The notes beneath the pieces are model-generated. The model did not search any database. It was not told where the DNA came from and was given only the letters and a program-made list of their open reading frames with translations. A stretch of DNA of 63,936 nt, filler included, from Olpidium bornovanus S191 (Eukaryota; Fungi; Olpidiomycota): assembly GCA_017911155.1 (NCBI GenBank). It is 32 parts of 32 records of this genome, joined end to end, with 100 filler letters (N's around TTAATTAATTAA, not from the genome) between each part and the next. Parts side by side here need not be neighbours in the genome. Positions count along the whole stretch, not along the records: positions 40,602 to 43,327 come from JAEFCI010009361.1; 31 more parts are not named here. One strand, written 5' to 3'. Position numbers and translations under genes: made by a program. Below, one piece after another: positions 42,140-43,245 of the stretch (within the stretch, counting starts at the first letter, position 1; every line of letters starts with the position of its first letter).

Positions 42140-43245
42140 CAGTACAGAAGTAAACTGTCCAGTCAAACCTTCGATGTTATTGATGTAGACATAGTGTTTA
42201 CTACCAATTACATATTCACCAATGATTTCCCAGAATGAATGTTTGCCTGCACCTTTCTTTTGACCCCAGTTAACAATGGCAACATCAGTTTTGACATATG
42301 GTTTCTGTACCTGTGACAAATGCTTGATGTGAAACTGATAATTGACTTCATCTCCATTATTAAGCACTTCTCGAAGATGATAAAGGAGGGGTTCAATTTT
42401 AGCTGGGTCTTACGAAGACAGAAGTTTTGTTTGAAAACCTCTGAACAGATTTAATGCTTCATTTTCAACATCCCCAACGATTGATGGGTCAAATACAATT
42501 TTCTTAAATGTTCTGATGTTATTATTATTTGACCATAACTTGGCAATTTCAAATCTTTCCATTTTACCAGCTTTTCCTACAGGAAGGTACACAGCAAAAA
42601 CGTTCATAGGCATCAAAAAACTCTTTCAAGGTGAATTAATAGTTTCACGACAACAGTAGACCACATTGTCCATACGAGTAACTTTTGCGAAGAAATTGTT
42701 GACATAATGGATAAATCCATTAATATTTTTACCCGCGTCTATAATCTGTCGTGCTTTATCATCAGATAAGACTTCATTGTCACCCACTGTTATTTTACAG
42801 GCATCAACTCCTGCAACTCCTTTATTTGGCGATGTACTTTATCTGTTTCTTTATCGAAATGTGTACATTTGAAAAAGACATATTCGCCACATAGAACAAA
42901 GTACATCTTGGGAACAGATACTTCATGTTTTGTTTTGGAGATGCAACAGAAATTGTCTGTTAGCAAACATGTAAGAGATTTACCATATTGCTTTATTTCT
43001 CCAATATCTCGTTCTCGATAGTAGGGAAGAGTTTAACAATTTCTGATTTGATTTTTGTACATAGCTCATTATCACGTTTGACCGTATCAACTTCAACACC
43101 ATCAGGCACCCCATCACTTTCCTCCACAGGTACAGTTTCGACAATTTCATACGTTTGTTCTTCAACTTTTCCTTTTATTTGCTTATTGTAAATAGCTCAA
43201 CTGCATCCTCTGGTACATTTTGAGCGATAAATTGGAAAGGTCCTT
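42140..43245 (-). mobile_element. Decayed virus-type primase-helicase gene fragment (Zn-finger, D5-like region and SF3 P-loop); candidate endogenous viral element
   Basis: An intronless AT-rich island in GC-rich DNA. Reconstructed translation: ...LTDNFCCISKTKH...YFVLCGEYVFFKCTH...FIHYVNNFFAKVT...LWSNNNNIRTFKKIVFDP...LNLFRGF...*DPAKIEPLLYHLREVLNNGD...QKPYVKTDVAIVNWGQKKGAGKHSFWEIIGEYVIG..HYVYINNIEGLTGQFTSVL. It carries two in-frame stops and two frameshifts. Confidence 0.75.

What the first reader, a model, noticed from the sequence alone, without database searches (positions are those of the whole stretch)
42140..43245. AT-rich island encoding a decayed viral-type primase-helicase: candidate endogenous dsDNA virus (PLV/virophage/NCLDV-like) in a zoosporic fungus
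Seen in sequence: about 1.1 kb of intronless, visibly AT-rich DNA sits between GC-rich flanks. On the minus strand four segments join into one protein of about 350 aa after two single-A frameshift corrections (about 42995 and 42793, both in A-runs) and two read-through stops (TGA 42626-42628, TAA 42410-42412). Its order is a C-x(n)-H-x(n)-C-x-H putative zinc-binding motif (42859-42957), then 'W...RTFKKIVFDP...NLFRGF', then 'PLLYHLREVL.NGD...QKPYVKTDVAIV.WGQKKGAGK...IG..HY..INNIEGLTGQF' with a Walker A at 42242-42265. Established knowledge: this ZnF / IVFDP-NLF.GF / SF3 P-loop arrangement is typical of the C-terminal part of AEP primase-helicases (D5/NrS-1-like; DUF5906 as I recall it) in Polinton-like viruses, virophages, NCLDVs and some phages. 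It is not a fungal housekeeping gene. Inference: this is a relic of a DNA virus or Polinton-like element integrated in the host genome. dsDNA viruses are barely documented in fungi, so this would point to a poorly described virus-host system. The sequence breaks off before Walker B and runs into unrelated GC-rich DNA, which suggests truncation.
Basis: partly seen in the sequence, partly recalled or inferred. Interest (0 to 1): 0.8.

Follow-up and report, generated by a model that had tools for sequence, protein, structure and literature searches.

The report
Viral primase-helicase relic in Olpidium
A broken 1.1-kb DNA-replication gene, whose closest named relatives are all in chytrid fungi, sits against a likely retrotransposon end on a contig assigned to the root-parasitic fungus Olpidium; it is likely the fossil of a small integrating (Polinton-like) DNA virus, a kind known from chytrids but not found reported for Olpidium.

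Summary
The island (GC 0.36 against 0.58) encodes a decayed primase-tail, zinc finger and superfamily-3 helicase fragment of the NrS-1/DUF5906 type, with two stops and three frameshifts, cut after Walker A. The window is a concatenation of 32 small contigs; this one is 2,726 bp, and its gene model is named Olpidium bornovanus. All 9 named close relatives (mostly 37-41% identity) are in chytrid genomes, several as multiple copies. One soil relative lies beside a Polinton-type tyrosine recombinase. The zinc finger ties the relic to AEP-type relatives, while its helicase groups elsewhere, so the gene looks mosaic. The helicase match stops at 42146, the end of a high-copy 1.43-kb LTR-like repeat, which suggests a retrotransposon cut a gene already in nuclear DNA. 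No capsid gene was linked to this helicase clade and no read crossing the junction was seen, so 'Polinton-like virus' is inferred (about 70%). Such viruses are already described in chytrids (Spizellomyces, Powellomyces); Olpidium would be a new host phylum. Verdict: new member of a known kind, moderate interest.

The parts
43193..43237 (-). Likely C-terminal tip of the AEP primase domain; the catalytic part is missing
   Evidence: Best of 127,784 six-frame positions in the window (next best 17.5 against 18.2); 0 of 2000 shuffles reach it; 95 codons before the Zn finger against 79-126 in five relatives. The motif was chosen after it was seen.
43023..43192 (-). Acidic linker between primase and Zn finger, in its own frame
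   Evidence: Open frame P0003. No significant match on its own; assigned by position, as relatives have a low-confidence linker here.
42793..43022 (-). Zn-finger segment (Cys 42945, His 42927, Cys 42867; fourth ligand altered)
   Evidence: 41% identity over 63 aa to Geranomyces P0031; E 4e-14 and 6e-11 to P0031 and P0024 among the fetched proteins; profile E 2e-15.
42146..42796 (-). N-terminal part of the NrS-1/DUF5906-type SF3 helicase through Walker A (42265-42242); no Walker B
   Evidence: Profile match 42790-42146, E 9e-59; 61% identity over 130 aa to P0005; tblastn of 8 of 9 relatives covers it, 7 of them down to 42146-42131.
42626..42628 (-). In-frame TGA stop
42410..42412 (-). In-frame TAA stop
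40721..42146 (+). High-copy LTR-like repeat (TG...CA, 1,426 bp, GC 0.61) whose 3' end coincides with the cut in the helicase gene
   Evidence: Many diverged copies in 4 of 4 runs laid. Pieces begin at 40721; one ends at 42146 and runs into a TGGTAGC primer-binding-like site. LTR and primer-site reading is from knowledge of retrotransposons.
40602..40720 (+). Likely fragment of a retrotransposon integrase, interrupted by the LTR
   Evidence: Other copies continue past 40719 with different sequence in 3 of 4 runs. Atlas lead to an rve cluster (score 0.91, rve on 14% of members); no Pfam or PDB hit.
43246..43327 (.). GC-rich end of the contig with a 12-bp tandem repeat at the boundary (43232-43271)
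   Evidence: covered in 4 of 4 runs laid (table 2)

Best explanation
This is a dead fragment of a primase/zinc-finger/superfamily-3-helicase gene, likely left by a Polinton-like DNA virus of zoosporic fungi that is inferred to have integrated into Olpidium nuclear DNA. The intact protein would have unwound the viral DNA as a hexameric ring and primed it with its AEP domain (inferred from the folds of relatives). After integration, likely through a tyrosine recombinase as in a soil relative, the gene collected two stops, three frameshifts and small indels (shown). An LTR retrotransposon inserted just after Walker A (the coincidence of ends is shown, the insertion inferred). The rest of the helicase was then separated from it, by recombination between LTR copies or by an assembly break inside the repeat, and the primase core was lost on the other side. 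It cannot encode a working enzyme: primase core and Walker B are absent.
For: Family. Of 29 close hits looked up, 8 carry a name and all 8 are chytrids; a ninth is Geranomyces. Six copies in Phlyctochytrium arcticum on scaffolds of four different lengths point to a mobile gene. Several unnamed relatives lie on 14-35 kb contigs, the size of such viruses. Relative P0012 lies on L004 near a protein whose nearest atlas clusters are mostly Preplasmiviricota and whose model matches tyrosine recombinases; 5 of its 6 other homologs are named chytrid proteins. More distant homologs sit beside A32 ATPase genes (L002, L017). N-terminal domains differ within the clade: PolA, AEP, Prim-Pol; such swaps are described for Polinton-like viruses (bioRxiv 10.64898/2026.06.19.733378, section 9). 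The helicase match ends at the LTR end. Other contigs carry flagellar and chitin-synthesis genes.
Against: No capsid, packaging ATPase or integrase gene on the contig or among 150 of 245 candidate window ORFs scanned; none detected on the 9.4-kb L004 except the recombinase. The described Spizellomyces virus is a pPolB element whose matched genes are SPPG_00918-00930, not the helicase relative SPPG_07597. The loci with A32 ATPases (L002, L017) lie outside the window's clade, and L018/L019 have neighbours more like giant viruses or cells. The 28-row clade has only SH-aLRT 87. No listed contig piece crosses the LTR-island junction; the island has no cover at 42331-43149 in 4 of 4 runs. No target-site duplication flanks the LTR.
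Confidence: 0.7

Rival explanations
1. It comes from a capsid-less self-replicating mobile element (helicase plus tyrosine recombinase), not from a virus with particles.
For: No capsid was found beside any member of the close clade; L004 shows helicase, recombinase-like gene and small RING-like genes only. Multi-copy in chytrid genomes.
Against: L004 is 9.4 kb of a contig that reaches at least 14.4 kb elsewhere. Its recombinase is nearest to viral clusters. Six Powellomyces viruses with virion genes and varied non-PolB replicases are described (PMC8502044, section 10).
Confidence: 0.13
2. The gene is real but not Olpidium's: the contig is a chimera through the repeat, or comes from another fungus sequenced alongside.
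For: The database labels the genome a metagenome assembly. The published assembly of the species was binned from mixed zoospore DNA (PMC7865070, passages). All named relatives are in Chytridiomycota, a different phylum. No target-site duplication; no bridging piece listed.
Against: The join falls at the biological end of the LTR, not inside it. Stops and frameshifts argue against a free virus. Both flanks have the GC content of the other contigs. The LTR was not found on the other 31 contigs, so its host is not directly shown.
Confidence: 0.1
3. It is a remnant of a giant virus (Mycodnaviridae-like Nucleocytoviricota) integrated in a zoosporic fungus.
For: AEP/Zn-finger/SF3 is the D5/E5 architecture. 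Giant viruses of zoosporic fungi encode D5-like helicase-primases (PMC13533422, passages). Some top structure hits are giant-virus proteins.
Against: Those hits are only 14-19% identical. The closest relatives with context are small: 14-35 kb contigs and a recombinase neighbour. PolA-type fusions in the same clade are described for Polinton-like viruses and virophages.
Confidence: 0.05
4. It is phage or bacterial DNA.
For: 45 phage records match weakly (best E 5e-6, 33% over 59% of the query); PHROG 2249 primase at E 0.007.
Against: Chytrid relatives score E 1e-39 over the whole fragment; the phage protein lies outside the clade on a long branch.
Confidence: 0.02

Closest known systems
Powellomyces MELD viruses (Starrett et al., PMC8502044; passages and section 10 read)
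   Same: Small dsDNA viruses from a chytrid dataset with varied non-PolB replicases; the figure legend lists PolA, SF3 helicase and tyrosine recombinase among the genes of such viruses. Two Powellomyces proteins are in the window's clade.
   Different: Whether those two proteins belong to the published viruses was not established (supplement search found nothing). The window has an AEP tail and Zn finger, is a decayed fragment, and is in Olpidiomycota.
Spizellomyces punctatus group Polinton-like viruses (Bellas and Sommaruga, PMC7805220; passages and supplement rows read)
   Same: Integrated Polinton-like virus in a zoosporic fungus.
   Different: That element uses pPolB and maps to SPPG_00918-00930; the helicase relative in the same genome is SPPG_07597, another locus.
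AEP/Zn-finger/SF3 proteins of Fimicolochytrium (KAI8823502.1), Geranomyces and Phlyctochytrium arcticum (KAI9089881.1)
   Same: Same domain order and the closest Zn finger.
   Different: The window's helicase does not group with theirs (AU test p 0.0002 in two groupings); its sister is the unnamed fragment P0005 (96/92).
NrS-1 primase-helicase (PDB 6K9C), poxvirus D5/E5 and ASFV C962R
   Same: Fold of the helicase and of the AEP domain in the intact relative.
   Different: Only 10-18% identity; phage or giant-virus hosts.

Membership tests
NrS-1/DUF5906-type SF3 primase-helicase | Homology to DUF5906 / NrS-1 helicase | tested here: met
   The fragment itself has no Pfam hit because it ends a few residues into the domain; 16 of 16 intact or longer relatives have DUF5906; their profile hits 6K9C/6K9E at E 6e-27 and the window at E 9e-59.
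NrS-1/DUF5906-type SF3 primase-helicase | Complete ATPase motifs (Walker A, Walker B, motif C) | tested here: not met
   Walker A present with a one-residue insertion; homology ends at 42146 before Walker B. A relic, not a working member.
AEP primase-helicase (D5/PrimPol-like) | N-terminal AEP catalytic domain | tested here: inconclusive
   Only a 15-residue tail is left; the relative sharing the Zn finger has an AEP fold.
AEP primase-helicase (D5/PrimPol-like) | Zn finger between primase and helicase | tested here: met
   Three of four ligands kept, 41% identity to P0031; a related protein has a weak Herpes_UL52 hit.
Polinton-like viruses | Double jelly-roll major capsid protein | not testable with these tools
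   Contig too short, no genome held, chytrid loci not retrievable.
Polinton-like viruses | A32-like packaging ATPase | tested here: inconclusive
   Absent from the scanned window ORFs; present only beside distant homologs L002, L017.
Polinton-like viruses | Integrase (tyrosine recombinase or rve) and terminal repeats | tested here: inconclusive
   None on the island; a recombinase-like gene lies near clade member P0012 on L004.
Polinton-like viruses | Replication gene of pPolB, PolA-SF3 or AEP-SF3 type | tested here: met
   AEP-tail/Zn/SF3 in the window; PolA-SF3 and AEP-SF3 in relatives.
Nucleocytoviricota (Mycodnaviridae) | Linked core genes (PolB, capsid, VLTF3, RNA polymerase) | tested here: inconclusive
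   None in 150 of 245 window ORFs scanned; contigs are unlinked.
Endogenous viral element | Joined to host DNA and decayed | tested here: inconclusive
   Decay met; joined to a high-copy LTR-like repeat at its end in the assembly; no reads across the join were seen.

The most novel reading that the evidence does not exclude
A lineage of integrating Polinton-like viruses, marked by one helicase clade that swaps AEP, PolA and Prim-Pol heads, moves among soil zoosporic fungi across phyla and has infected Olpidium, the flagellated sister of land fungi and a vector of plant viruses. Intact AT-rich copies may survive in Olpidium DNA that composition-based binning discarded.
Probability: 0.3. Interest if true: 0.65.

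Novelty: new member of a known kind. Interest (0 to 1): 0.4.

Why it matters
DNA viruses are rare in fungi: one survey found dsDNA viral regions in 0.89% of fungal assemblies (bioRxiv 10.1101/2025.04.19.649669, passage). The known Polinton-like cases among flagellated fungi that I found are chytrids. Olpidium is the closest zoosporic relative of terrestrial fungi (title of PMC7865070), so a relic there extends the host range towards the point where flagella, and apparently most such viruses, were lost. It gives a concrete probe for finding the whole element in the unbinned reads and in chytrid genomes. On its own it is a 1.1-kb fossil with no function.

Tried and rejected
Pfam and PDB sequence searches of the window's segments gave nothing useful, PHROGs only a weak primase hit; a word-based search for longer homologs found none. 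Eight scans of viral contigs found no close relative: six protein or alignment scans and one motif scan were empty, one gave two distant loci. No RNA holder was listed. Run X2 has depth under 1 at 42149-42330, but the piece was not shown, so I draw nothing from it. Methylation/deamination decay rejected: island CpG o/e 0.61 lies within the 0.0-1.05 range of five intact helicase genes and the LTR is not depleted. Conserved-residue loss is slight (21 of 26 kept, two misses at a stop) and cannot date the insertion. Linking to the midasin-like ORF was rejected (separate contig). No Rfam match. No earlier scan findings. Rows dropped from trees: one search kept the best 60 of the long-enough hits plus locus proteins (68 rows; short fragments and near-duplicates left out); one search used 35 rows chosen from that clade and its neighbours. 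No report of such an element in Olpidium was found in searches (nor Rhizophlyctis, 115); the library lacks most subscription papers, the protist survey PMC10120064 excluded fungi, and bioRxiv supplements, which could list Olpidium, were not visible.

Full report
Setting. The window is not continuous DNA: it is 32 contigs of 1.0-4.6 kb joined by N44-TTAATTAATTAA-N44 spacers. The finding lies on the contig 40602-43327 (2,726 bp). No whole genome was held. Other contigs carry dynein heavy chain, CFAP58 and Chs7 domains, as expected of a flagellated fungus.

Observation. The island has GC 0.356 against 0.584 and holds the lowest 1-kb window. Profile matching to relatives places the helicase frame at 42790-42146 (E 9e-59) and the Zn-finger frame at 43062-42757 (E 2e-15). 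The first frameshift lies nearer 43020-43030 than 42995. A further frame carries a 15-residue match to the end of the AEP domain at 43237-43193: best of 127,784 positions in the window (18.2; next 17.5), 0 of 2000 shuffles, at the expected distance from the Zn finger (95 codons against 79-126); I picked this motif after seeing it. So there are likely three frameshifts.

Family. A full HMMER search with the stop-read-through helicase frame gave 1,656 proteins at E<=0.001 and 13 at E<=1e-30. All 16 relatives scanned carry DUF5906, and their profiles hit the NrS-1 helicase structures. The Zn-finger segment matches P0031 (Geranomyces), P0024 (Fimicolochytrium) and P0014 (Phlyctochytrium arcticum) best. 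The model of P0024 (pLDDT 81.9) aligns with the monkeypox E5 AEP domain (Z 16.9, rmsd 3.3, 187 residues), human PrimPol (Z 15.2) and NrS-1 (Z 26.5, rmsd 4.9, 373 residues). The model of P0008, another close relative, has a PolA-type head instead (Klenow fragment, Z 13.4, rmsd 4.5, 256 residues), and P0021/P0030 have Prim-Pol heads. Phage matches are weak.

Relatives. Of 29 close hits looked up, 8 have names and all are chytrids: Spizellomyces, Powellomyces (2), Phlyctochytrium arcticum (3), Fimicolochytrium, Gaertneriomyces; P. arcticum has six copies. A distant hit is from the alga Trebouxia (29% identity). In a quick 68-row tree the window falls in a 28-row clade (SH-aLRT 87) with all the named chytrid proteins included. 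In a careful 35-row tree its sister is the unnamed fragment P0005 (96/92), deeper nodes are weak, and grouping it with the relatives that share its Zn finger is rejected (p-AU 0.0003 and 0.0002; the groups were named from the Zn-finger result). The gene thus looks mosaic. Switching of replication modules is described as common in Polinton-like viruses (bioRxiv 10.64898/2026.06.19.733378, section 9 and passages).

Context of relatives. Only one clade member came with DNA: L004, a 9.4-kb metagenome contig with the PolA-type helicase P0012, RING-like genes and a 371-aa protein. That protein's nearest atlas clusters are viral, mostly Preplasmiviricota, and its model matches tyrosine recombinases; 5 of its 6 other homologs are from Rhizophlyctis and Borealophlyctis. 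No capsid gene was detected on L004. A32 ATPases occur only beside distant homologs (L002, L017), and other distant loci have Ras or ankyrin neighbours.

Flanks. Contigs of four public runs, laid on the whole contig, cover 40602-42148 and 43241-43327 but leave 42331-43149 empty. The left flank is present as many diverged copies (summed depth up to 14,760 in one run). Pieces start at 40721 (TG); one ends at 42146 (CA) and continues with TGGTAGC, which from knowledge fits a primer-binding site for initiator tRNA. At 40719 three runs continue with other sequence, and the 39 codons before it give a weak lead to an rve integrase. I read 40721-42146 as an LTR. The helicase match ends at the same base, 42146. 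There is no target-site duplication, so the two LTR ends probably stem from different insertions, joined by recombination or by the assembler. Either way the LTR-helicase junction sits at a biological boundary, which a random chimera would not be expected to hit. No read-level view of the junction was obtained.

Mechanism. Shown: domain order, decay, loss of primase core and Walker B, coincidence with the repeat end. Inferred: origin in a small integrating DNA virus; replication by a ring helicase with attached primase; integration by a tyrosine recombinase; insertion of a retrotransposon after integration; later rearrangement. I put this at 0.70, a capsid-less element at 0.13, a chimera or another fungus at 0.10, a giant virus at 0.05 and a phage at 0.02.

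What is known. A Polinton-like virus is integrated in Spizellomyces (PMC7805220; passages and supplement rows), but it is a pPolB element at another locus than the helicase relative. Six viruses with varied replicases were assembled from a Powellomyces dataset (PMC8502044; passages and section 10). Packaging ATPases are reported from many chytrid genomes. Giant viruses of zoosporic fungi are described, with no mention of Olpidium in the main text (PMC13533422, passages). Searches found no report of such an element in Olpidium. The published assembly of the species was binned by tetramer content from mixed DNA and keeps 16% of the raw assembly (PMC7865070, passages); if the window derives from such an assembly, intact AT-rich viral contigs would likely have been removed, and this fragment would have survived because of its GC-rich flank.

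Verdict. A real, decayed, virus-type primase-helicase fragment of a chytrid-associated clade: new member of a known kind, in a host phylum for which I found no report. Interest 0.4; up to 0.65 if the whole element is recovered from Olpidium.

Noticed in passing
window 40721-42146: High-copy 1.43-kb LTR-like repeat with a 40-bp tandem pair holding CCAAT boxes (41690-41772) and a TATA-like box near 41965; an apparently undescribed retrotransposon family also present in soil metagenome runs.
   Followed up: partly
window 40602-43327: The public gene model on this contig (P0004, 314 aa) is an artefact: it splices round the stop and joins the helicase piece to LTR sequence read backwards.
   Followed up: partly
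L004 1-9417: Metagenome contig with an intact PolA-SF3 helicase gene, a tyrosine-recombinase-like gene flanked by two inverted RING-like paralogs (1425-1901 and 3914-4393), and chytrid-related homologs: a candidate undescribed element of chytrids.
   Followed up: partly
P0013, P0014, P0025, P0155-P0157: Phlyctochytrium arcticum carries at least six genes of this helicase clade, with both AEP-type and PolA-type heads.
   Followed up: no
window 43429-45459: Intronless acidic ORF ending in a VWA domain, like the C-terminus of midasin (name recalled); on a separate contig from the island.
   Followed up: partly
window, other contigs: Ordinary host gene pieces: dynein heavy chain C-terminus (15-830), Mpo1-like (5889-6218), cwf21 (11918-12271), DEAD helicase (13401-13934), Chs7 (32478-33415), TPT transporter (36395-37621), dUTPase (38905-39414), CFAP58 (49134-49664), RPN7 (54705-55184). 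Long homopolymer runs end many contigs.
   Followed up: no
L002, L017: Very AT-rich (23-24% GC) 11-16 kb contigs with A32 ATPase and a DUF5906 helicase; L002 also has a weak phage-integrase hit. They look like Polinton-like virus genomes, distant from the window's clade.
   Followed up: partly
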